Shown: positions 5,471-16,970, counted from the first letter of the stretch. The stretch: 64,000 nucleotides of DNA from Deltaproteobacteria bacterium (GCA_029262315.1 JAJCZP010000108.1:21449-85448), one strand, 5' to 3'. Program-made: numbers and translations. The notes: generated by a model not told the origin, from the letters alone.

Positions 5471-6751
5471 ATGGACCACATGCTCCGCATTGCGAGCATC
5501 GTGATGCTGTTTGGGCTCGCCCCCGGAGTCCACGCGGATGTCGTTCCAGGCGACACCGTCGATGCGCGCAACATCGAGAAGGTCGCTGATCTCGTGTCAC
5601 CGGCCATCAAGTGGTGCGTGCGCAACGGCATGACGATGAAGATCATCGAGCCGAAGCGCATCACCTGGCCGCAGGCCTACGTTGCCGCCACCGAGAAGTA
5701 CGCGGGGCAGGTCAGTCTTTCCGAGAACGGCCTGGCGCTCGAGAATCACGTCGCCGGCGCGCCGTTCCCGAACATCGATACCAAAGACCCCGCAGCGGCC
5801 GTCAAGATCATGTGGAACTATGAGTATCGTCCGTTCCCTGGCACGGACGATTTCGTCGAATACGACTTCCCGGCAGATACGGGTGCCGTCGGTCAGGGAA
5901 AGCCGATGGACGTCGAGCGTCGCTATTGGATCGGTGAGTCGCGGCGCCTGTACTACAACGCGCGTTTGCGCATCGATCCGAAGCCCGAGCTTCCCAACCC
6001 CGACGGCATTCGATTCAAAGAAGTGCTCGGCCCGTTGGTCGCACCCTTCGACCTCAAGGGCATCGGCGCGCTCTCGTATCGGTACATCGATGCGGAGAAA
6101 CAGGACGACACGTGGCTGTACGTGCCCACGCTCCGCCGGGTACGTCGGCTATCGACCGCGCAGCGTTCCGACGCGTTGTTCGGCCAGGACACCGATCCGG
6201 ATTCCTACTGGGGCTACAACGGGCACATCGCCTGGTCCGACTGGAAGTTTCTTGGTGAGAGGGAGATGCTCGGTGTGTTGCACGGCGAGCACTACCCGAT
6301 GCAGCGGTGTCCCGGCGCGGCGAACTTCCTCTTCTGTGACGCCTGGGAGAAACGCACGATGTATGTGATCGAGGGCGTGTCCAAGCTGCCGCAGTACGCG
6401 TATGGCAAGCGTGTGATCTTCATTGACAAAGAGTCGATGGTCGTGTCGTATTCGGACATCTACGATCGCAACCACGAGCTCTGGAAGGTGTGGATCGACA
6501 ACCACCAGTTCAAGCGCTCGGCGTTTCCCGGGGCGACCGTGTATGAGGAAGAGAAGGACTTCTACGCAGGATTGGCGATGGTAGACATGCAGCTCCTGCA
6601 CGCCACTTACGTGCCGCATCCCGGCCCCAAGCCCGCTCGACACGAGGGGTGGTACTTCGATTCTGGCGCGGGCTCTGCGACACAATACAAGCCGTCGGGT
6701 GGGATGCCCGCGTCGTTCAGCGTCGCCAAACTCATCGAGCAAGGGCGGTAA
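5471..6751 (+). CDS. DUF1329 domain exported protein
   Basis: GGAG SD, signal peptide, AGAPFP.ID, KIMWN, DDTWLYVPTLRRVRRL, Y.KRVIFIDKE, ELWK. Confidence 0.88.
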   Translation: MDHMLRIASIVMLFGLAPGVHADVVPGDTVDARNIEKVADLVSPAIKWCVRNGMTMKIIEPKRITWPQAYVAATEKYAGQVSLSENGLALENHVAGAPFPNIDTKDPAAAVKIMWNYEYRPFPGTDDFVEYDFPADTGAVGQGKPMDVERRYWIGESRRLYYNARLRIDPKPELPNPDGIRFKEVLGPLVAPFDLKGIGALSYRYIDAEKQDDTWLYVPTLRRVRRLSTAQRSDALFGQDTDPDSYWGYNGHIAWSDWKFLGEREMLGVLHGEHYPMQRCPGAANFLFCDAWEKRTMYVIEGVSKLPQYAYGKRVIFIDKESMVVSYSDIYDRNHELWKVWIDNHQFKRSAFPGATVYEEEKDFYAGLAMVDMQLLHATYVPHPGPKPARHEGWYFDSGAGSATQYKPSGGMPASFSVAKLIEQGR

Positions 6752-7580: not shown

Positions 7581-7620
7581 TACGAAGTCTCAATGGCCCC
7601 GAACGTGGGTTGCGACGAGT

Positions 7621-7636
7621 GGGCACGTCGTTTGCT
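7621..7636 (+). promoter_or_regulatory. sigma-54 -24/-12 promoter (GGGCACG-TCGT-TTGCT)
   Basis: Near-perfect match to TGGCACG-N4-TTGCW, 29 nt before the CBS gene ATG. Confidence 0.75.
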
Positions 7637-7664
7637 GTTGTCCTAGCAGGAACGGGAGACGCCA

Positions 7665-8162
7665 ATGGACGACGCAATCCGCACCGCACGCGACGTGATG
7701 CAAACCAACTTGCTGACAATCTCGGCCGACGCGTCGCTCGTCGAGCTAGAACGGTTTCTGCTCCAACATCAGGTGGGAGGTGCTCCCGTCGTTGACGACC
7801 AGCAGCTCGTTGGGGTCGTCTCGCGCTCGGACATCGTCCGCCAGCTCGATCTCGATCGGGGTCTCGCGGACATCCTGGTGGACTATCAACACGATGGCGC
7901 ACTGCACGCGCCGCGCGCCGCGCTCCGTGAGGACGAATGGATCACGAGCGCCGCAACCGACCACTTCCGTGGCCTGCGGGTGCGCGATGTCATGATCCGG
8001 GACGTGATCACGGCGAGCCCAGATGCGTCCGTGCAGCAGGTCACGCGCACGATGCTCGACAATGGCGTGCATCGTGTCCTCATCACCGAAGATGAATTCC
8101 TCGTTGGCATCGTGACCAGCACCGACCTGATGCGCCTCGTCGTCGAGTACACATCCCGATAG
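7665..8162 (+). CDS. CBS-domain pair protein
   Basis: ARDVMQ..., GAPVVD..LVGVVSRSD, VRDVM, HRVLI..LVGIVTSTD. Confidence 0.92.
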   Translation: MDDAIRTARDVMQTNLLTISADASLVELERFLLQHQVGGAPVVDDQQLVGVVSRSDIVRQLDLDRGLADILVDYQHDGALHAPRAALREDEWITSAATDHFRGLRVRDVMIRDVITASPDASVQQVTRTMLDNGVHRVLITEDEFLVGIVTSTDLMRLVVEYTSR

Positions 8163-8220
8163 CGGGTTGCTGCCCGCCGTCGGTCTCGTCGACGCGATCG
8201 GGGGACGTCGTGTGTACGCC

Positions 8221-10167
8221 TCAGCCGGCGGAGAATGCGAGCTGCACGGCAACCCACCCGAGATGGGCGTCGTAGTCGCGGCCATCGTACAGCCCCTGGT
8301 CGAAGCTGAGGTATGCGTAGCCGCCGGTAAAGCTCAGGCGGTCGTTGACCCGATAGCCGCCGTCGAGGAACAGCCGGTGCGTCAGGTTGTCGAGCGAGCC
8401 GCCCGCGTCGACCAGCGTATAGCGTCCGCCGAGCGTCGTCTGGTCGTTCACGCGATATCGTGCCGCCAGCGCCGTGCTCAACGACCGTCCGCGAAACTCG
8501 ATCGGTGCAAAGGCGCCCAGATCGCGCCGTGGCGTGCCGACCTCGTACTTCCGGTTCACGAACGAGAGCATGCTGGTCACGACCAGGCCCGGTGCGGGGA
8601 CGGTCACGGCACGCAACTGGCCAATCTGCACATTCACGGAGGTCGTGGAATCCCCACCAATGTCCGTCCGCTCGTAGTCCTCGTGCGCGAACTCGCCGCG
8701 CGCTTCGAAAGTCGTGATTCGGCCCCATCGATACCGTCCCCCGAGGAATCCGGTGTGGGTCTCGCGGTGTCGATCCCCCAACGTATACTCGTTCAGGAGT
8801 TCGTCACGGTCCTCGTCGATGTCCTCGCGGCGGTACCGGTACCCGGCCTTGACGAGCAGCGAGCGGTCGGCCCGGATACGCGCCTCGAGCAACAACCGGT
8901 GCACGTCGCGCTTCTGGTCCGTTTCCTGAATTCGATCGATCCCGCTCAGGGGATCGGTGGCAGCCCCGAGCATCGACACGTCGAGATCACGATGTGCGTG
9001 TTCGTACCGATACATCCCGCGAAGCCGGGTCCGCGTCAGGCCCGTATAGCTCACATCCAGACGTGCGCGCTGCCGAGTCAGTTGCTTGTCCGTATCGCTC
9101 TCGACCACGCTCGTTCCACGCCGCCTCGTTTCCGACCCGTCGCCATCGCGATGCTGATCGACGATGGTATAGGTCGTACGAACGCGCAGGTGGCGCGCTG
9201 GTGAGAACGCCAGGCCGCTGTGACCGGCGTGGCTCTGTTGCGTCACGGAGATGCCGTTTGCCGTCCGCTCGAGGACGGAATCTGACTGCTGCGACGCATC
9301 GGCGTCCGCGTCCACCCAATAGTACCGGTAGCCCGCATGTCCGAGCACGTTCCACGTCGTCGGGGTGGCGATGTCGGCCCCCGCGTGCACCGTGGTCGTG
9401 TCGATATCGTCCGTGAAGCGCACGGCCTCCTGCGTCAGGTCGGTACGTACGTTCGTTTGATGCGTGGTGCTGCGACTCGACGCGTCGGTCCAGCCGGCCA
9501 GCAATCGCACATCAAACGGACCGGCCGGAAACACCCCCTCGAAATCGAGGGTATCGGAGCGAGTGTCGATGGCCTGGAACGCCGGAAACCGGAAGGCATA
9601 CGGACTCAAGCTCTCGACGACCGAGGCCTTGAGCAGATTTTCGTCGCCGTCGCTCGCGCGATGCGCGTAGGTGAGGCGCAGGTTGCTACGGGGGCCGAGT
9701 CGCACATCCGCGGCCACATCGGCGTTCGTCCGCACCAGCTCGAACTCCCGCCCCAGCTGCCCGGGCGCCGCTCTGCCAGCACCCGGACGGCGCAGATGAT
9801 CGTCGAAGAAGCTTTGCGAACGGCTGAACGCGCCCGTCAGGGTGTAGAGGCCCCGGCGGCCCCCACGCACATGGATCGTGGCGCCGCCGACGCCGCGGGC
9901 ATCCTCGATACCTTGGATGCTCGCGGCACCCTCGAAGTAGTTGCCACGCTCGTCGTGCCCGTCGAAACGGGTTTCGGCGCCGCCCCCGCTGCCGAGGGTG
10001 TCGTAGTCCTCACGGAATGCGCCCTCGCTCCCATCGACGCCGGTACCGCGCCCGACGGCGCGCCCGGTCATACTCATCGTCCACGTCGACCCATCCGTCC
10101 CGTCGGGCTCCGCGACCACGGAAGCTGGAAGCCCGAGCACCAGGACGACGAGCAGGATCCACATCAT
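8221..10167 (-). CDS. outer-membrane beta-barrel, MtrB/PioB-like porin partner of decaheme cytochrome
   Basis: Signal peptide MMWILLVVLVLGLPASVVA, ~648 aa, alternating amphipathic strands (GYRY, YTIVD, GYAY), near-terminal Phe. ATGA-coupled to the decaheme gene. Confidence 0.78.
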   Translation of the reverse strand: MMWILLVVLVLGLPASVVAEPDGTDGSTWTMSMTGRAVGRGTGVDGSEGAFREDYDTLGSGGGAETRFDGHDERGNYFEGAASIQGIEDARGVGGATIHVRGGRRGLYTLTGAFSRSQSFFDDHLRRPGAGRAAPGQLGREFELVRTNADVAADVRLGPRSNLRLTYAHRASDGDENLLKASVVESLSPYAFRFPAFQAIDTRSDTLDFEGVFPAGPFDVRLLAGWTDASSRSTTHQTNVRTDLTQEAVRFTDDIDTTTVHAGADIATPTTWNVLGHAGYRYYWVDADADASQQSDSVLERTANGISVTQQSHAGHSGLAFSPARHLRVRTTYTIVDQHRDGDGSETRRRGTSVVESDTDKQLTRQRARLDVSYTGLTRTRLRGMYRYEHAHRDLDVSMLGAATDPLSGIDRIQETDQKRDVHRLLLEARIRADRSLLVKAGYRYRREDIDEDRDELLNEYTLGDRHRETHTGFLGGRYRWGRITTFEARGEFAHEDYERTDIGGDSTTSVNVQIGQLRAVTVPAPGLVVTSMLSFVNRKYEVGTPRRDLGAFAPIEFRGRSLSTALAARYRVNDQTTLGGRYTLVDAGGSLDNLTHRLFLDGGYRVNDRLSFTGGYAYLSFDQGLYDGRDYDAHLGWVAVQLAFSAG

Positions 10168-11189
10168 GGGTGCCGTCCCCCGCGGAGGAGCTCCTCGATC
10201 CCGAGCGGACTGAAGTTCTCGTTCGTGTTCGAGCCGTGCACCTCGAAGTGGCAGTCGAAACATCGGGCGCCTGCGGACAAGAAGCCGGTGTGATCGACAG
10301 CGCCGATCAGCGGGAAGTTCGCATCGAAATGGCACTGCTCGCACAGGCCGTTGTCGGCCTGGACCAGGAGCTTCTCGACGACCGAGCCGTGCGGATTGTG
10401 ACAGACCACGCACCCCTCCTCGAGCGCGAAATGCTCGAAGAGGAAGGGCCCGCGGACCTCCTGATGACACTCGAAGCAACGGGCATCATCACCCTCGAGC
10501 TGCCCCCAGCGCGCGGAGGCATGGATGTCGTGGCAATCCGTGCAGCGCATCGTCCCTTCGGCGACGGGATGGTGGTACTGCAAGGCGAAATCGGCGGCGA
10601 CCTCTCCGTGGCACTGCACGCAGAACTCCATCTCGCGTGGGCCCTCCCCCACCGTCACGTGCGGGTCCGCATCGCGATGCGCTGACATCGCCCGCCAGCT
10701 GTACTCGACCACGGGCACGAGTTCCGTCGCCGGGGGACGGGTGTGGAGGGCATCGGCGTGGCAGTCCCAGCACGAGACGCCGGCATCGCCGTGCGCACTG
10801 GCTTCGAACGACCCGGCCTGCCCGCGGTGACAGTCGAGACAGAGTGTCGAGCGCTGCATCGGATCGAGTCCTCGCAAGACGTCGTTCCCAAGAATGTCGG
10901 CGATCTCGAGCGTGTCGACGTGGCGACTTCCCGCCCCGTGACAGACTTCGCAGGAGTGCTCGCGCGTCTGCATGACATGGGCGTGCGGGGTGCCAGCGTA
11001 GGCCTCGAGCGTTTCCTCGTGACACTCGAGGCACGCCGCCGTCCCGGCCATGGTTGCGTTCTCGATGACGGGGATCGGCTGCGGCGCGTCGTCTCGCAGC
11101 AACGGGCACGCGCACAAGGTCGCGAGGCCGAACGCCACACCGACACGTCGGAGACGCCTCCCCATGACCAGCTGGATCAGCTGCCGCAT
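10164..11189 (-). CDS. decaheme c-type cytochrome, MtrA/DmsE family
   Basis: 10 CXXCH (CLECH, CEVCH, CLDCH, CWDCH, CVQCH, CTDCH, CFECH, CVVCH, CEQCH, CFDCH), HHPV.EG.M.C, GPFLFEH, terminal HGSN. Confidence 0.9.
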   Translation of the reverse strand: MRQLIQLVMGRRLRRVGVAFGLATLCACPLLRDDAPQPIPVIENATMAGTAACLECHEETLEAYAGTPHAHVMQTREHSCEVCHGAGSRHVDTLEIADILGNDVLRGLDPMQRSTLCLDCHRGQAGSFEASAHGDAGVSCWDCHADALHTRPPATELVPVVEYSWRAMSAHRDADPHVTVGEGPREMEFCVQCHGEVAADFALQYHHPVAEGTMRCTDCHDIHASARWGQLEGDDARCFECHQEVRGPFLFEHFALEEGCVVCHNPHGSVVEKLLVQADNGLCEQCHFDANFPLIGAVDHTGFLSAGARCFDCHFEVHGSNTNENFSPLGIEELLRGGRHP

Positions 11190-11204
11190 CCGCGCCCGTC
11201 GATC

Positions 11205-12491
11205 CTACAACTCGCTCAACTTCTCCAACGACGCCTCGAGCAGCCGACGCATCCGACTCGGGTTGTGCACGCCGTGACTCTTGTCATTCTCGAAGGTCTC
11301 GAGATTGAAGAGTGCGCCCTGGTACTCTTCGCTACCCCGTTTCGCTTCCGGCACGGCGTCGAGCGCGGTACCTAGTTCGGCCGCCAGCGGATCGATCTCC
11401 GCTCGAAAGGCCGTGAAGATCGTCGCAGTATCGGCGTGACAGTCCGCGCAGTTCGAGAAGTCGCGCTCCTCCGTCGCCTCGTCGATCACCGGAATCGGCT
11501 CGAAGGTGTGTCCGACCTGGGCCGGAATCGGGAACTCGCCTCCCTGAAACGGACGCGTCACGACGTGGCAGGTGACGCAGATATCGGGATTCAGCGTCAG
11601 GTCGCCGTGCGTCGAGGCGCCGGGGAATACCTCGCCCGGGAACTCGAAGCCGGCCTCGCCCAGCAGCACATCACGCTGGGGATGGTGTGGCGTCTCGCCG
11701 ATCATCGTCGGGCCCTGATTGTGGCACTGCCCGCACACGATGGGCTCGTCGCCGACGACGCGTACCTGGTGCTCGTTGCCGTTCCCGTGTGGGTCGTGAC
11801 AGGCGACGCAGTTGATCGGTTCGGGATTGGTGGTGATGATCTGCTCGTCGCCGTCAGTCTCGACGAATCGAATGAACGACTGCGTCACGTGGCAGTACGC
11901 ACACGCGGGGTCGCCGGCGACGTTCAAGCCGAACGCCTGGCCCGAAAGATGGGACTCGGAATGTGCCGACTCCATCCATTCTTCCACAAACGGATGATGC
12001 GCGGCTTGGTGACACTCGCCGCAGCCATCGTTGAGCGACACGGTAATGCTGGCGTCGGGATGATCCTTCACATCGGCGACATGCATCGCCCCCGGGCCAT
12101 GACAGTTCTCGCACTGCACGTTGTGGAGCTCGGCAACGGGAGTTCCGACGAAGCCCGCCATCGGGTCCATGAGTGTGTTCCCGTTCTCGCTGATGTTGTG
12201 ACACGGGGCGCAGGAAAGCTCGGAACTCTCGCGGCCGATCGCGGCCAGCGTGTCGAAAGCTACGGCGTGCCCGGTCAGCGCCCAGCGCCCCTGCTCGTTC
12301 GCATGACACTCCCCGCACTGGGTGACGTTTTGGCTGACGTTCACCAACCCGAGGAAGCCGTCCGGGAACGGACCCGTCTCGGGGCTGCCGTCGCCACTAC
12401 CACCCCCACACTGCCACATCGCCGACGTCATCGTTGCAACGCAGGCAACCACCAACACGCGTCGCCACCACCCAGTCGCTTGCTCGCTCAT
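11205..12491 (-). CDS. nonaheme c-type cytochrome, probable lipoprotein (c554-like N-terminus, GVHNP C-terminus)
   Basis: 9 CXXCH (CGECH, CAPCH, CENCH, CGECH, CAYCH, CVACH, CGQCH, CVTCH, CADCH), signal ending AMWQC-GGGSG, GGAGG SD. Confidence 0.87.
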   Translation of the reverse strand: MSEQATGWWRRVLVVACVATMTSAMWQCGGGSGDGSPETGPFPDGFLGLVNVSQNVTQCGECHANEQGRWALTGHAVAFDTLAAIGRESSELSCAPCHNISENGNTLMDPMAGFVGTPVAELHNVQCENCHGPGAMHVADVKDHPDASITVSLNDGCGECHQAAHHPFVEEWMESAHSESHLSGQAFGLNVAGDPACAYCHVTQSFIRFVETDGDEQIITTNPEPINCVACHDPHGNGNEHQVRVVGDEPIVCGQCHNQGPTMIGETPHHPQRDVLLGEAGFEFPGEVFPGASTHGDLTLNPDICVTCHVVTRPFQGGEFPIPAQVGHTFEPIPVIDEATEERDFSNCADCHADTATIFTAFRAEIDPLAAELGTALDAVPEAKRGSEEYQGALFNLETFENDKSHGVHNPSRMRRLLEASLEKLSEL

Positions 12492-12634
12492 CGTGCGCGT
12501 CCTCCACCTTGCATCCTGAGGGATGTTGCTGCCGACGCATCAGCGTCACTGGCAGTATTCTCTCACATAGATTGTGACACGGCTCGAGTGCAAGAAGAAC
12601 CTGCTCTGAAAAACGAAGTTCTTACTCTTTGGAA

Positions 12635-12650
12635 TTCTCGATCATGGGAA
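12635..12650. promoter_or_regulatory. palindromic operator TTCTCG-N4-TGGGAA
   Basis: Recurring motif, in the AT-richer gap upstream of the nonaheme-decaheme-porin genes. Confidence 0.55.
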
Positions 12651-12665
12651 TTCCGCGCGTCTCCG

Positions 12666-12860
12666 CTACGCTCGCGTGGCAACGGCGTACAGGTAGAGGG
12701 CGATTCCCGCACCCGCGAGCAACGCACCCGCGCCGCCGAACACGATGAACGACAAGGCACCATTCCAGTACAGCGAACCGAGCTCCACGATGAGACCCGC
12801 TCCAACGAGAGTAGCCGCTCCGCGCACACGCCCTGCCAGCATGCGCAACGTCGGACTCAC
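12666..12860 (-). CDS. small two-TM membrane protein coupled to NapC/NirT gene
   Basis: GTGA overlap with the NapC stop; two hydrophobic helices. Confidence 0.7.
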   Translation of the reverse strand: MSPTLRMLAGRVRGAATLVGAGLIVELGSLYWNGALSFIVFGGAGALLAGAGIALYLYAVATRA

Positions 12861-13450
12861 GCTCCTGCTCCATCCGAACTCGCCTCGCCGAGCAGGTGCC
12901 CGACGTCGTGGCAGTCGAGGCAGGACGTCTCATTGGCGGTCAACGCCTCGCGCTCATCGACATGCATGTCGTTCTCCTCGAACGACTTGGCCCCGGTATG
13001 ACAATGGAGACACTCCCGATTGTTGTACGGCCGGTAGAGTTCCAGCTCGTCCGGAATGGTACCGAGATAGTTCACGTACAGATGTAGGAGCCCGCCGAGC
13101 TTCGCCTGGAAATCGCCGAACATGGCGTATGTCGTATGGCACGAGTAGCAGGCCTCATCCGCGTCGATGCGGCGATTCTGGAAATGCTGGGCTGGGAGCG
13201 AGTCGGCATCGTCGACATGCAAACTCTCGCCGTACGGCGTCATCACGTGGCAGGACAGACAGAAGCTGGTCGTCTTCGACTCCTCCAAATGCAGCGAAAA
13301 GCCCCGCGAAAGGGCGATTCCGGGCAGGAGGAACAGGGCGACGAACGCCACTACGCGGCCCGCGACCCTGCCCAGATGGCTCGGCCGCGCAAGCACGAAC
13401 GCAATGAGTCCGAGGTTGAGCAGAATCAGCGCTGTGAGCGTATACTTCAC
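12857..13450 (-). CDS. NapC/NirT (CymA/NrfH-like) membrane tetraheme quinol dehydrogenase
   Basis: N-terminal TM helices, FCLSCHVM (CXXCHXM), CYSCH, CLHCH, CLDCH. Confidence 0.88.
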   Translation of the reverse strand: MKYTLTALILLNLGLIAFVLARPSHLGRVAGRVVAFVALFLLPGIALSRGFSLHLEESKTTSFCLSCHVMTPYGESLHVDDADSLPAQHFQNRRIDADEACYSCHTTYAMFGDFQAKLGGLLHLYVNYLGTIPDELELYRPYNNRECLHCHTGAKSFEENDMHVDEREALTANETSCLDCHDVGHLLGEASSDGAGA

Positions 13451-13469
13451 GGGTCGACCGCCTTCGCCG

Positions 13470-13796
13470 TCAGTTTCCCTTCAATCCGGCAACCCACTCG
13501 GCGATCGCCCCGAGCTCCTCGTCGCTGCCCTTGAAGCTCCCCTTGTGCTTCTTGCCATCGAGCAGCTCCTGCTTGGTCACGAGCCGAACGATCCAAGCGG
13601 CATCATGCTTCGGACTCGCCTCTGCGAGATCGGGTCCCCGCATCTTCTCGGATTTGGCCGTCGCTGTGATACCGTGCGTCGACACGGCATGACATTTGTC
13701 GCAGCCGTACGACACGAAGAGCGCCTGGCCGTCGGCAGCACGAGCGTACCCCGACGACAGGACGATGAAGAGCATGCTTGCAGCGAGGCGTCTCAT
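13470..13796 (-). CDS. monoheme cytochrome c
   Basis: Signal peptide, GQALF..YGCDKCH, GPDL. Confidence 0.85.
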   Translation of the reverse strand: MRRLAASMLFIVLSSGYARAADGQALFVSYGCDKCHAVSTHGITATAKSEKMRGPDLAEASPKHDAAWIVRLVTKQELLDGKKHKGSFKGSDEELGAIAEWVAGLKGN

Positions 13797-13879
13797 CCAT
13801 TGCTCCTTTGCCTGTCGTGCGACCCGATGTCGCCTTCGCCCAGATAGCGAGTCGTGACCATGCAGGCAACCGGCGCAGC

Positions 13880-14905
13880 TCAGCCCGCGCGATCACGGAC
13901 GACGTAGAAGAGGCAATCCTGGACCGCGATGCGAATATCGGTCGTCATCATGATTGGTACGAGCGCGGCGCGGGTCCTCAAACGATCATCGACGATCTCG
14001 AACAGATCGGAGGCGCGATCGTCGCCAGCAGCACCGCGCGCCTCGATTGGTAGCTGGATTGATGGTCGTACCCACCCGAGCACCGTTCCGGCCTCGAGGA
14101 GGGAGAAATTGTGCTGGTCGACACCTGACGTGAGCGTGAGGTCGGCATCGACAGCCGGCGCCTCGGCAAACGCGAGGCGCACGCCCGGTCGCACACCGAC
14201 GCGCATTGGCTCCTCGAACACCTGAAACCCCGAGGGAACCGCATCGAGCGGTAGCCGGACGGCCTCGACGAACCGCGTGAGTCCCGCGAGCGCAATCGCG
14301 TCCGACGCAGGATCACCGGCGCGTCCGCATTCAATGGTCACCGCAGGGAGTTCATCGGCCAAGACCTCGGTCAGGGCGCCAAGGGTCAGATCGCTCAGGA
14401 CCACGCGTTCAGCGAAGAGGGTGACGAGGCCCAACTCGGGGGCGCCAGCGCGCATCGCGACGCCATACGCTGGATTGTGCCCGGTGTTGTTGTGCAGATC
14501 GACCAGCGCCTCCGGGCGTGAACTCCGCACCATGCGGACGATGGCTTCGGCGAGGACGCCCCCGGTACCGACGAATGGCGGACGGAAGCAGCGGTTCAGG
14601 TCGCGCTCTTCTGGCAGCATGCGGTGCGAGAACGCGGGCGGCCGCCGCGCGGCGGCGACAGCTGCAACCACGCAGAGAACATCCACGGCGGGTGTGGGGC
14701 CAGAGCGGAGCCACGAGTGCAGGGCACGCAGACCCGACGGCTCGTTGCCGTGTAGCAGCGTTACGAGCGCGCGCGTGCGTGTTCTGTCACGGCCCGGAAT
14801 CCTGAACACTGTCGGGCCGTCGAGCATGGCGAGAAAGTCCTCGGCGGACGCTCCGACGTCCTCGCGCCTCGGGGCGTCCCTGTATCGAAGCGGCCCCCCA
14901 CTCAC
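13880..14905 (-). CDS. succinylglutamate desuccinylase/aspartoacylase (M14) family hydrolase
   Basis: LHGNEPSG, DLNR, DLHN, IECG. GTGA overlap with the ligase gene. Confidence 0.85.
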   Translation of the reverse strand: MSGGPLRYRDAPRREDVGASAEDFLAMLDGPTVFRIPGRDRTRTRALVTLLHGNEPSGLRALHSWLRSGPTPAVDVLCVVAAVAAARRPPAFSHRMLPEERDLNRCFRPPFVGTGGVLAEAIVRMVRSSRPEALVDLHNNTGHNPAYGVAMRAGAPELGLVTLFAERVVLSDLTLGALTEVLADELPAVTIECGRAGDPASDAIALAGLTRFVEAVRLPLDAVPSGFQVFEEPMRVGVRPGVRLAFAEAPAVDADLTLTSGVDQHNFSLLEAGTVLGWVRPSIQLPIEARGAAGDDRASDLFEIVDDRLRTRAALVPIMMTTDIRIAVQDCLFYVVRDRAG

Positions 14906-16547: not shown

Positions 16548-16970
16548 ATGAATGCCAAGATCGACGATGTCATGATCGCGAACGCGATCGTCGCCACACC
16601 CGACGTCACCGTTGGAGAGATCCGCCGGCGAATGTTGGGCGAAGAGATTCACGCGCTCCCGGTCGTCAGTCCAGAGGGCGAGCCCATCGGCATCGTTACC
16701 TCCACCGACCTCGTCGCGGAGCCACCCGCCGATACGCCCGTTGCGCACATCATGAGCACGGGCGTGTTCACCGTGCCGCGCTACGCCGACGTGCACATCG
16801 CGGCCCGCATCATGCGGAACCACGGGTTGCACCATGTTGTCGTAACGCACGAGAAGCAGGTCGTCGGCATCGTGAGTTCGTTCGATCTCATCAAACTCGT
16901 CGAGGATCACCGCTTCGTCATGAAGAACGGGCCGACCGAGCCTCGTCGCCGTTCGCCGCAGCGATCCTAG
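16548..16970 (+). CDS. CBS-domain pair protein
   Basis: IHALPVV..GEPIGIVTSTD, HHVVV..VVGIVSSFD. Confidence 0.92.
   Translation: MNAKIDDVMIANAIVATPDVTVGEIRRRMLGEEIHALPVVSPEGEPIGIVTSTDLVAEPPADTPVAHIMSTGVFTVPRYADVHIAARIMRNHGLHHVVVTHEKQVVGIVSSFDLIKLVEDHRFVMKNGPTEPRRRSPQRS

What the first reader, a model, noticed from the sequence alone, without database searches (positions are those of the whole stretch)
8221..13796. Complete porin-cytochrome conduit with a non-MtrC nonaheme lipoprotein in the mtrC position
Seen (minus strand): monoheme c, NapC/NirT tetraheme, 2-TM peptide, 9-heme putative lipoprotein, MtrA-type decaheme and a 648-aa barrel, totalling 24 CXXCH. Established: mtrCAB with CymA links the quinone pool to extracellular acceptors or donors. 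Here the first gene of the trio is a 428-aa c554-like protein with a GVHNP C-terminus rather than a ~670-aa decaheme MtrC, and the barrel lacks the N-terminal CXXC of Shewanella MtrB. Inference: a variant extracellular electron transfer chain spanning both membranes; direction unknown.
Basis: partly seen in the sequence, partly recalled or inferred. Interest (0 to 1): 0.75.

Follow-up and report, generated by a model that had tools for sequence, protein, structure and literature searches.

The report
Electron conduit with OcwA-like outer cytochrome
Six neighbouring genes encode a probable electron wire across the cell envelope in which the usual outer cytochrome (MtrC) is replaced by a relative of a surface cytochrome so far studied only in Gram-positive iron-reducing bacteria.

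Summary
Six minus-strand genes carry 1+4+0+9+10+0 = 24 CXXCH motifs. The decaheme is MtrA/DmsE-type (TIGR03508 191.0 bits, cut-off 192.2; solved MtrA E 7e-30). The 648-aa protein fails the MtrB/PioB models by sequence. It nevertheless folds as a plug-free 26-strand barrel whose best solved match by far is MtrB (Z 24.3; next 16.7).

The nonaheme protein is neither MtrC nor merely c554-like. Its family profile matches the cell-surface reductases OmhA (6QVM, E 6.5e-29) and OcwA (6I5B, E 4.3e-24). All nine heme motifs of OcwA align in order, and both His-His pockets and the GVHN helix motif are kept.

The order nonaheme, decaheme, barrel recurs in five other genomes. A NapC/NirT-like cytochrome with a translationally coupled 2-TM peptide recurs in three of six loci, and a monoheme c in four of six.

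Best reading: an MtrAB-type outer-membrane conduit capped by an OcwA-type lipoprotein, probably exporting electrons. Direction and surface location are not shown.

This is a new variant of a known kind. A 2026 preprint already mentions OcwA-like cytochromes in diderm clusters. This scan's index held no look-alike on other DNA.

The parts
13470..13796 (-). Monoheme class I c-type cytochrome, 108 aa, with a Sec signal peptide; the likely periplasmic carrier
   Evidence: It has one CXXCH. Pfam gives PF13442 at 29.5 bits (cut-off 27) and PF00034 at 27.0 bits (cut-off 21.3). A monoheme c lies beside the trio in 4 of 6 loci: own, G008, G557 and G458. No significant match to any solved structure was found; the best E is 0.047.
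12857..13450 (-). NapC/NirT-type tetraheme cytochrome, 197 aa, with two N-terminal hydrophobic segments; the likely inner-membrane quinol/quinone link
   Evidence: It has 4 CXXCH. PF03264 scores 49.3 bits against a cut-off of 24.1. The TIGR02161, NrfH and TorC models score far below their cut-offs. Two hydrophobic 19-aa stretches separated by a basic loop precede heme 1, here and in the G008 and G557 homologues. Homologues sit beside the trio in G008 (38% identity, E 1.5e-28) and G557 (42%, 127 bits).
12666..12860 (-). 64-aa peptide with two hydrophobic helices, overlapping the stop of the NapC/NirT-like gene by 4 bp
   Evidence: It matches no Pfam or NCBIfam family. A 66-aa ORF (L096, from 5716) and a 71-aa ORF (L109 9921-10136) with two hydrophobic segments follow the NapC/NirT-like gene with the same 4-bp overlap in G008 and G557.
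11205..12491 (-). OcwA/OmhA-type nonaheme c-type cytochrome, 428 aa, probable lipoprotein (Cys28); the proposed outer-face terminal cytochrome
   Evidence: It has 9 CXXCH. The family profile hits 6qvm_A at E 6.5e-29 and 6i5b_A at E 4.3e-24, with nine motifs collinear with OcwA and the GVHN motif aligned. Both HH motifs are kept in the 22 orthologues: H165 22/22, H166 20/22, H269 22/22, H270 22/22. Seven further His are invariant or nearly so. Cys28 is invariant in 24 sequences and at least 90% conserved in 79. It matches no MtrC/OmcA model.
10164..11189 (-). MtrA/DmsE-type decaheme cytochrome, 341 aa, with a lipobox-like Cys28; the proposed wire inside the barrel
   Evidence: It has 10 CXXCH. 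TIGR03508 scores 191.0 bits against a cut-off of 192.2. NF041028 (GSU2203 family) scores 190.8 against 325. The match to 6r2q_A has E 7.3e-30. A Cys directly after the signal-peptide core is present in 14 of 14 orthologues and in 3 of 10 more distant DmsE-family rows.
8221..10167 (-). MtrB-like 26-strand outer-membrane beta-barrel, 648 aa, with a signal peptide, no Cys and no plug
   Evidence: The AF2 model has pLDDT 85.4, pTM 0.79 and 26 strands. Foldseek's top hit is 6r2q_B at E 2e-13 and TM 0.64; the next hits have TM 0.46 or less. VIA-align gives Z 24.3, rmsd 3.6 A and 563 residues aligned, against a next best Z of 16.7. By sequence it is only weakly related: TIGR03509 scores 21.6 bits against a cut-off of 240.05, there is no PDB sequence hit, and PF11854 does not match in this genome.

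Best explanation
The cluster encodes a porin-cytochrome electron conduit of the MtrAB type with a different cap.

A 26-strand MtrB-like barrel sheathes an MtrA/DmsE-type decaheme cytochrome. In this clade the decaheme itself appears to be lipid-anchored. On the outer face, the place of MtrC is taken by a nonaheme lipoprotein of the OcwA/OmhA family. By homology it should carry seven bis-His hemes plus two hemes with open, His-His-lined distal pockets.

A NapC/NirT-type tetraheme cytochrome with two membrane helices, its coupled 2-TM peptide and a periplasmic monoheme c connect the conduit to the quinone pool.

Shown here: gene content, homologies, barrel fold and conserved synteny. Inferred: that the decaheme sits in the barrel, that the nonaheme protein is surface-exposed and docks on it, and that the net flow is outward, from quinol to extracellular Fe(III)/Mn(IV) minerals, humics or another impermeant oxidant. 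I put the outward direction at about 55-60% given a conduit.
For: - Heme counts and gene order are as reported.
- The decaheme is MtrA-like.
- The barrel has 26 strands and no plug, and its best structural match is MtrB by a wide margin.
- The nonaheme family matches the surface reductases OmhA and OcwA along hemes 1-9, the HH motifs and the C-terminal GVHN helices. The model's three C-terminal helices are mostly confident.
- The lipobox Cys is conserved in both cytochromes.
- The trio keeps the same order in 5 other genomes of two families. Nonaheme and decaheme hits share 8 contig lengths, own contig included.
- A quinone-linked inner-membrane module always differs but is often present. It is NapC/NirT-like plus peptide in own, G008 and G557. 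It is an 11-heme/cytochrome b561 fusion beside the barrel in G006.
- No MtrC/OmcA gene reaches its cut-off anywhere in the genome.
- A type II secretin is present.
- For the outward direction: OcwA and OmhA are terminal reductases, and no RuBisCO was found in a 99.96%-complete genome.
Against: - There are no expression or experimental data.
- The barrel fails both curated MtrB/PioB models and lacks the CXXC.
- The decaheme is 1.2 bits under its NCBIfam cut-off.
- The window's own nonaheme has an atypical lipobox (M-W-Q-C) with a possible signal peptidase I site just before it. This is read by eye; no SPII predictor was available.
- The AF2 model of the nonaheme is poor overall (pLDDT 54.3).
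- Outward orientation of the nonaheme is inferred only from homology and gene position.
- The NapC-like gene is beside the trio in only 3 of 6 loci, and the monoheme in 4 of 6.
- A monoheme c plus a NapC/NirT protein next to a decaheme and barrel is also the make-up of the iron-oxidising Mto cluster. The direction is therefore open.
Confidence: 0.6

Rival explanations
1. The same conduit works mainly inward, as electron uptake from Fe(II), reduced minerals or a partner cell. Electrons would pass from the OcwA-like cap through the decaheme to the monoheme c, and then to the NapC/NirT-like protein or to oxidases, as proposed for MtoAB-MtoD-CymA of Sideroxydans.
For: The gene content of decaheme, barrel, monoheme class I c and NapC/NirT cytochrome matches the Mto cluster as described in Baker 2022 and He 2017 (passages). 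Baker 2022 states that direction cannot be inferred from Mtr-type genes. A heme-copper oxidase-like gene exists in the genome.
Against: Mto and Pio systems lack an extracellular cytochrome, whereas this cluster has one. The cap's characterised relatives are reductases. No RuBisCO was found. No true ccoN was found: 186 bits against a cut-off of 583. The monoheme shows no detectable match to a solved MtoD structure.
Confidence: 0.2
2. The nonaheme lipoprotein faces the periplasm. It would be either a relay between the NapC/NirT-like protein and the decaheme, or an NrfA/MccA-like enzyme acting on nitrite, hydroxylamine or a sulfur compound. The outer-membrane conduit would then be two-component, like MtoAB or PioAB.
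For: The family belongs to the NrfA/c554/MccA superfamily. OcwA reduces nitrite and hydroxylamine in vitro. Both HH pockets are strictly kept in the orthologues. The lipoprotein signal alone does not tell which side of the outer membrane is faced. The decaheme is also a putative lipoprotein, so lipidation is not specific to surface proteins here.
Against: The gene sits in the mtrC position, 15 bp upstream of the decaheme, in all 6 loci. The two closest characterised relatives are both cell-surface proteins. Distant paralogues in 54 of 77 loci also sit beside a secreted ~500-aa protein that looks barrel-like. That points to an outer-membrane role for the family.
Confidence: 0.12
3. The genes are neighbours without forming one system, or the barrel is an ordinary porin or transporter.
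For: The barrel fails the MtrB/PioB sequence models. There is a 174-bp gap between the peptide gene and the nonaheme gene.
Against: The trio is syntenic in six genomes. The decaheme and barrel genes overlap by 4 bp. The barrel has 26 strands, no plug, and MtrB as its best match at Z 24.3. The barrel family is tiny: 34 representatives among 1.84 billion proteins. In every locus examined it travels with the decaheme.
Confidence: 0.03

Closest known systems
MtrCAB of Shewanella (PDB 6R2Q)
   Same: The gene order is outer cytochrome, decaheme, barrel. The decaheme is homologous to MtrA (E 7.3e-30). The barrel has 26 strands and MtrB is its best structural match.
   Different: The outer cytochrome is not MtrC/OmcA: it has 9 hemes in 428 aa and no TIGR03507 match. 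The barrel is far below the MtrB/PioB cut-offs and has no Cys. The decaheme carries a lipobox Cys in 14 of 14 orthologues, and an insertion of about 35-40 aa between hemes 4 and 5 relative to other DmsE-family rows. That Shewanella MtrA is not lipidated is recalled.
OcwA of Thermincola potens (6I5B) and OmhA of Carboxydothermus ferrireducens (6QVM)
   Same: The profile matches at E 4.3e-24 and 6.5e-29. Nine heme motifs are collinear with OcwA, both His-His pocket motifs are kept, and the C-terminal helices carry GVHN.
   Different: The protein is shorter (428 aa against chains of 526 and 681 aa). It is a lipoprotein of a diderm and is encoded next to an MtrAB-type module. The characterised proteins sit on monoderm cell walls or S-layers. 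Heme coordination and activity have not been tested here.
MtoAB-MtoD-CymA(MtoC) of Sideroxydans lithotrophicus ES-1
   Same: It combines a DmsE-family decaheme, a barrel, a monoheme class I cytochrome c and a NapC/NirT-type tetraheme in one cluster (passages).
   Different: Mto has no extracellular cytochrome. No sequence link of the monoheme to a solved MtoD was found. The NapC-like protein here has two N-terminal hydrophobic segments and a coupled 2-TM peptide.
DmsEFAB-type wiring (an MtrAB-like module feeding a different extracellular lipoprotein partner)
   Same: This is the principle that an MtrA/MtrB-like pair can serve an outer partner other than MtrC. It is recalled; DmsEFAB is also named in the abstract listed for PMC9732548.
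   Different: The partner here is a multiheme cytochrome of the OcwA family, not a molybdoenzyme.
NCBIfam GSU2203 (decaheme) and GSU2204 (CXXCH-containing protein) families of Geobacter
   Same: The decaheme matches NF041028 over its full length (190.8 bits). Ten of 33 distant barrel relatives match NF041027.
   Different: The scores are below cut-off (325 for NF041028). The window's barrel itself does not match NF041027 at E 0.01 or better and has no CXXCH. I found almost nothing in print on this pair: 3 papers in the listing only.
Peat EET clusters of Acidobacteriota and Verrucomicrobiota (bioRxiv 10.64898/2026.05.27.727921)
   Same: These are porin plus multiheme-cytochrome clusters. Their figure legend lists 'OwcA-like' cytochromes among the modelled components (section 9 read).
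   Different: They come from other phyla. The text I read names no nonaheme, no lipoprotein, and no pairing of an OcwA-like protein with an MtrAB-type pair (find). Its supplements and figures could not be seen.

Membership tests
MtrA/DmsE decaheme family (TIGR03508) | Ten CXXCH motifs in about 300-350 aa | tested here: met
   10 CXXCH in 341 aa.
MtrA/DmsE decaheme family (TIGR03508) | Score at or above the curated NCBIfam cut-off | tested here: inconclusive
   191.0 bits against a cut-off of 192.2, with E 2.6e-56. The match to solved MtrA (6r2q_A) has E 7.3e-30. The next relatives at about 40% identity are named DmsE family by their sources.
MtrB/PioB barrel family (TIGR03509, PF11854) | Score at or above the curated cut-offs | tested here: not met
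   TIGR03509 scores 21.6 bits against 240.05. PF11854 has no match at E 0.001 or better in the genome. Two closer homologues carry precomputed PF11854 hits, and 9 of 33 aligned relatives hit TIGR03509 weakly.
MtrB/PioB barrel family (TIGR03509, PF11854) | Large (26-strand) plug-free barrel resembling solved MtrB | tested here: met
   The model has 26 strands. 6r2q_B is the top hit by Foldseek (TM 0.64) and by VIA-align (Z 24.3, rmsd 3.6 A, 563 residues aligned; next Z 16.7).
MtrB/PioB barrel family (TIGR03509, PF11854) | N-terminal CXXC (Shewanella MtrB; recalled) | tested here: not met
   The 648-aa protein has 0 Cys.
MtrC/OmcA decaheme family (TIGR03507) | Match to the family model; ten hemes in about 650-700 aa | tested here: not met
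   The nonaheme has no TIGR03507 match at E 0.01 or better, and has 9 hemes in 428 aa. Only the generic PF22113 domain matches, at 36.3 bits over residues 51-138; it also matches the decaheme and the NapC-like protein. The best TIGR03507 hit in the whole genome is 19.1 bits against 209.3.
OcwA/OmhA cell-surface multiheme cytochromes | Nine heme motifs collinear with OcwA | tested here: met
   The profile alignment to 6i5b_A covers motifs 1, 2-4 and 5-9 in order.
OcwA/OmhA cell-surface multiheme cytochromes | Two His-His motifs over hemes 2 and 5 (HH281/282 and HH380/381 in OcwA) | tested here: met
   HH165/166 and HH269/270 align to the OcwA HH pairs. In the orthologues they are conserved 22/22, 20/22, 22/22 and 22/22.
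OcwA/OmhA cell-surface multiheme cytochromes | C-terminal three-helix bundle | tested here: met
   The model has helices 355-379, 388-402 and 411-427. Block-mean pLDDT from residue 361 is 82-97, except 60 for residues 401-410. GVHN aligns with GVHN of OcwA and GIHN of OmhA.
OcwA/OmhA cell-surface multiheme cytochromes | Two penta-coordinate hemes; exposure on the cell surface | not testable with these tools
   This needs EPR or spectroscopy and localisation experiments.
NapC/NirT/CymA quinol dehydrogenases (PF03264) | Family model and four CXXCH | tested here: met
   PF03264 scores 49.3 bits against 24.1, and there are 4 CXXCH. The equivalog and subfamily models TIGR02161, NrfH and TorC score far below cut-off.
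NapC/NirT/CymA quinol dehydrogenases (PF03264) | Single N-terminal membrane helix (recalled) | tested here: not met
   Two hydrophobic segments precede heme 1 in all three homologues.
Mto pathway (MtoA, MtoB, MtoD, CymA/MtoC) | No extracellular cytochrome; MtoD-type monoheme | tested here: inconclusive
   An extra nonaheme gene is present, which departs from Mto. The monoheme gave 9 weak PDB hits, the best at E 0.047 and none named MtoD. Absence from that list does not exclude kinship.

The most novel reading that the evidence does not exclude
OcwA/OmhA-type cytochromes have been characterised only on monoderm thermophiles. They may be a third, portable class of diderm outer-surface terminal cytochromes. 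Here one is plugged onto an MtrB-type barrel. In more than 50 Gemmatimonadota and Eisenbacteria loci a paralogue sits beside an unrelated, uncharacterised ~500-aa putative barrel. Because both open His-His heme pockets are strictly kept, the conduit may end in catalytic sites. It would then be an extracellular enzyme for small oxidants rather than a plain electron-egress surface.
Probability: 0.35. Interest if true: 0.7.

Novelty: new variant of a known kind. Interest (0 to 1): 0.55.

Why it matters
Marker-gene surveys such as FeGenie-style HMM screens look for MtrC, MtrB/PioB and OmcB-type genes. This cluster would be missed or called MtoAB-like, because the barrel fails the family models and the cap is not MtrC.

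It shows the MtrAB core recombined with a cap from the NrfA/c554/MccA superfamily. That links the extracellular respiration machinery of Gram-positive and Gram-negative bacteria. It also gives a concrete, small (428-aa) candidate for testing how interchangeable the outer cytochromes of such conduits are.

The large paralogue family in Gemmatimonadota suggests an unrecognised capacity for extracellular electron exchange in a common soil phylum.

Tried and rejected
- Complex prediction of barrel (residues 30-648) with nonaheme (residues 50-428): no verdict. The score was 0.00 in both runs and the controls were not run. It counts neither for nor against binding.
- AF2 of the nonaheme (24-row alignment) gave pLDDT 54.3. 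That is too poor for a fold search, so none was made with it.
- Sequencing runs: 3 DNA rows from one study (biofilm metagenome), and no RNA holder listed.
- Promoter and terminator scan of 7600-14300: 0 promoter-like sites, and 3 terminator-like sites against 3.3 expected. It was uninformative.
- Barrel against PDB by sequence: 0 hits at E 10 or better.
- Taxon naming: cluster look-ups of 7 nonaheme relatives and 4 housekeeping proteins returned no organism names. The 'Binatia' label comes only from earlier notes of this scan and was not verified. The Gemmatimonadota names belong to the ~35%-identity paralogues, not to this lineage.
- Idea rejected: that the broad paralogue family shares the MtrAB context. 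Of 77 paralogue loci, 0 had a barrel hit and 1 had a weak decaheme hit (L046, 43 bits).
- Literature searches for an OcwA-like cap on an MtrAB pair found only the 2026 peat preprint's legend.
- This scan's index held no look-alike of the nonaheme.

Full report
**Observation**

On the minus strand of window 8221-13796 lie six tightly packed ORFs.

| Gene | Coordinates | Length |
|---|---|---|
| monoheme c | 13470-13796 | 108 aa |
| NapC/NirT-like cytochrome | 12857-13450 | 197 aa |
| peptide | 12666-12860 | 64 aa |
| nonaheme protein | 11205-12491 | 428 aa |
| decaheme | 10164-11189 | 341 aa |
| barrel (from the MMWILL start) | 8221-10167 | 648 aa |

- A script counted 1, 4, 0, 9, 10 and 0 CXXCH motifs, 24 in all.
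- The NapC-like/peptide pair and the decaheme/barrel pair each overlap by 4 bp.
- The barrel has no cysteine.

**Decaheme and barrel**

The decaheme:
- It scores 191.0 bits on TIGR03508 (DmsE family; cut-off 192.2).
- It scores 190.8 bits on the GSU2203-family model (cut-off 325).
- It matches chain A of the solved Mtr complex at E 7.3e-30.

The barrel is a sequence outlier:
- TIGR03509 gives 21.6 bits against a cut-off of 240.05.
- PF11854 does not match in the genome.
- It has no PDB sequence hit.
- Only 34 representatives reach E 0.001 or better among 1.84 billion proteins, and 5 reach E 1e-30.

Folded with a 33-row alignment, the barrel gives a confident model (pLDDT 85.4, pTM 0.79) with 26 strands and no plug domain.
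- Foldseek ranks MtrB (6r2q_B) first (E 2e-13, TM 0.64). TonB-dependent receptors follow at TM 0.46 or less.
- VIA-align gives Z 24.3, rmsd 3.6 A and 563 aligned residues, against Z 16.7 for the next entry.

**Nonaheme protein**

Pfam sees only generic multiheme domains, the best being Cytochrome_C554 over residues 58-132. No MtrC/OmcA model matches.

A profile of 24 family members hits two solved structures far above all others: 6qvm_A (E 6.5e-29) and 6i5b_A (E 4.3e-24). Passages of Soares et al. 2022 and Costa et al. 2019 identify these as follows:
- 6QVM is OmhA of Carboxydothermus ferrireducens.
- 6I5B is OcwA of Thermincola potens.
- Both are cell-surface terminal reductases of Gram-positive bacteria.

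The printed alignment covers all nine OcwA heme motifs in order, and the GVHN motif of the C-terminal helices.

Costa et al. report two five-coordinate hemes, each under a His-His motif (HH281/282 and HH380/381). The window protein has HH165/166 and HH269/270 at the aligned places.
- In 22 orthologues these are kept 22/22, 20/22, 22/22 and 22/22.
- Seven further non-motif His are invariant or nearly so: H75, H137, H177, H235, H295, H328 and H409.
- That is the number needed for seven bis-His hemes.

Cys28, at the end of the signal peptide, is invariant in 24 sequences and at least 90% conserved in 79. It is followed by a Gly/Ser/Asp-rich linker. Most relatives have canonical lipoboxes. The window's own M-W-Q-C is atypical.

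**An unexpected extra**

The decaheme also carries a Cys right after its signal-peptide core. This holds in 14 of 14 orthologues, against 3 of 10 more distant DmsE-family rows. The orthologues also have an insertion of about 35-40 residues between hemes 4 and 5.

**Conservation of the cluster**

Close nonaheme orthologues (52-80% identity) number 18 clusters besides the window's own. Identity then drops to 37% or less.

The barrel was found in 7 of 401 genomes sampled from the class:
- the window's own genome
- 2 of 18 genomes in its own family
- 4 of 18 genomes in a second family.

In a 401-genome sample of the phylum it was found in 1 genome, the window's own.

The order nonaheme, decaheme, barrel on one strand is seen in G006, G008, G031, G458 and G557. 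G575's contig holds only the barrel.

The accessory genes move around but recur:
- The NapC/NirT-like gene with a 4-bp-overlapping 2-TM peptide is in own, G008 and G557.
- In all three the cytochrome has two N-terminal hydrophobic segments.
- A monoheme c is in own, G008, G557 and G458.
- G006 instead has an 11-heme/cytochrome b561 fusion next to the barrel.
- G031 has a divergently oriented locus whose end genes match NqrA and the NAD/FAD/2Fe-2S domains expected of NqrF.

Different inner-membrane quinone modules beside the same trio fit a chain that runs from the quinone pool to the outer membrane.

**Wider family**

About 35%-identical paralogues of the nonaheme protein (8-9 hemes, about 470 aa, with a lipobox) are abundant.
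- A scan of species genomes found 610 encoding stretches. The 77 loci kept are mostly named Gemmatimonadota, with a few Eisenbacteria.
- None of the 77 has the MtrB-like barrel. One has a weak decaheme hit.
- 54 of 77 have, on the same strand downstream, a homologous secreted ~500-aa protein without Pfam hits.
- The nearest named Atlas clusters of that protein are outer-membrane barrel families. This is a lead only (score 0.92).
- Large multiheme cytochromes often lie between the two genes.

So the OcwA-like lipoprotein seems to be a portable outer module.

**Direction**

Favouring outward flow:
- The cap's characterised relatives are reductases.
- No RuBisCO was found in a 99.96%-complete genome.
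- G006 has a cytochrome c/b fusion beside the barrel. Its likeness to Geobacter CbcL is recalled.

Against: a monoheme c plus NapC/NirT is also the Mto arrangement. Baker et al. stress that direction cannot be read from such genes.

A type II secretin is present, and no MtrC/OmcA gene.

**Comparison and novelty**

MtrAB cores with variable outer partners are established. Baker 2022 calls the core conserved and MtrC variable (passages). He 2017 describes further PCC types (passages).

An OcwA-type cap on an MtrAB-type pair did not turn up in my searches. One May 2026 preprint on peat Acidobacteriota and Verrucomicrobiota lists 'OwcA-like' cytochromes among modelled components of porin-cytochrome clusters. 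I read its section 9. Its figures and supplements were not visible and may bear on this.

I therefore rate the finding a new variant of a known kind.

Earlier notes of this scan call the genome Binatia, which I did not verify.

Noticed in passing
L017-L093 (e.g. L049 7893-10902, L060 7746-14101, L033 7878-11657): A large family of 8-9-heme OcwA-like lipoproteins exists in Gemmatimonadota and Eisenbacteria: 610 encoding stretches were found. In 54 of the 77 loci kept, a homologous, Pfam-less, secreted ~500-aa protein lies downstream, often with 9- to 18-heme cytochromes between. This may be an undescribed porin-cytochrome type.
   Followed up: partly
window 10164-11189 and the orthologues in alignment A4: The MtrA-type decaheme of this clade has a conserved lipobox-like Cys in 14 of 14 orthologues. 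It also has an insertion of about 35-40 residues between hemes 4 and 5 that is absent from other DmsE-family rows.
   Followed up: partly
window 12666-13450; L096 5144-5916; L109 9319-10136: The NapC/NirT-like tetraheme has two N-terminal hydrophobic segments, not the usual one. It is always followed, with a 4-bp overlap, by a 64-71-aa peptide with two hydrophobic segments. Together they may form a four-helix membrane module.
   Followed up: partly
L094 10599-17440 (G006): Directly upstream of the trio in G006 lies what looks like a second cytochrome module. It comprises an 11-CXXCH protein, a 657-aa Pfam-less protein, and 3- and 4-CXXCH proteins.
   Followed up: no
window 13470-13796 versus L096 10473-10802: The two monoheme cytochromes are only 24% identical. 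Where the G008 protein has K-M-P motifs (the likely Met ligand), the window protein has K-K-H-K and no Met downstream of GPDL. Its sixth heme ligand may therefore differ.
   Followed up: no
window 7665-8162 and 16548-16970: The ORF just downstream of the barrel is a CBS-pair protein (PF00571, 100.3 bits). The ORF at 16548-16970 looks similar by eye but was not scanned. Similar-looking ORFs lie near the trio in L095 (18012-18488) and L096 (4313-5002); these too were judged by eye only.
   Followed up: no
window 5471-6751: A secreted DUF1329/LolA-like protein (PF07044 at 170.5 bits, PF17131 at 57.6 bits) is encoded about 1.5 kb from the barrel gene on the other strand. Any relevance to lipoprotein handling is unknown.
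   Followed up: no
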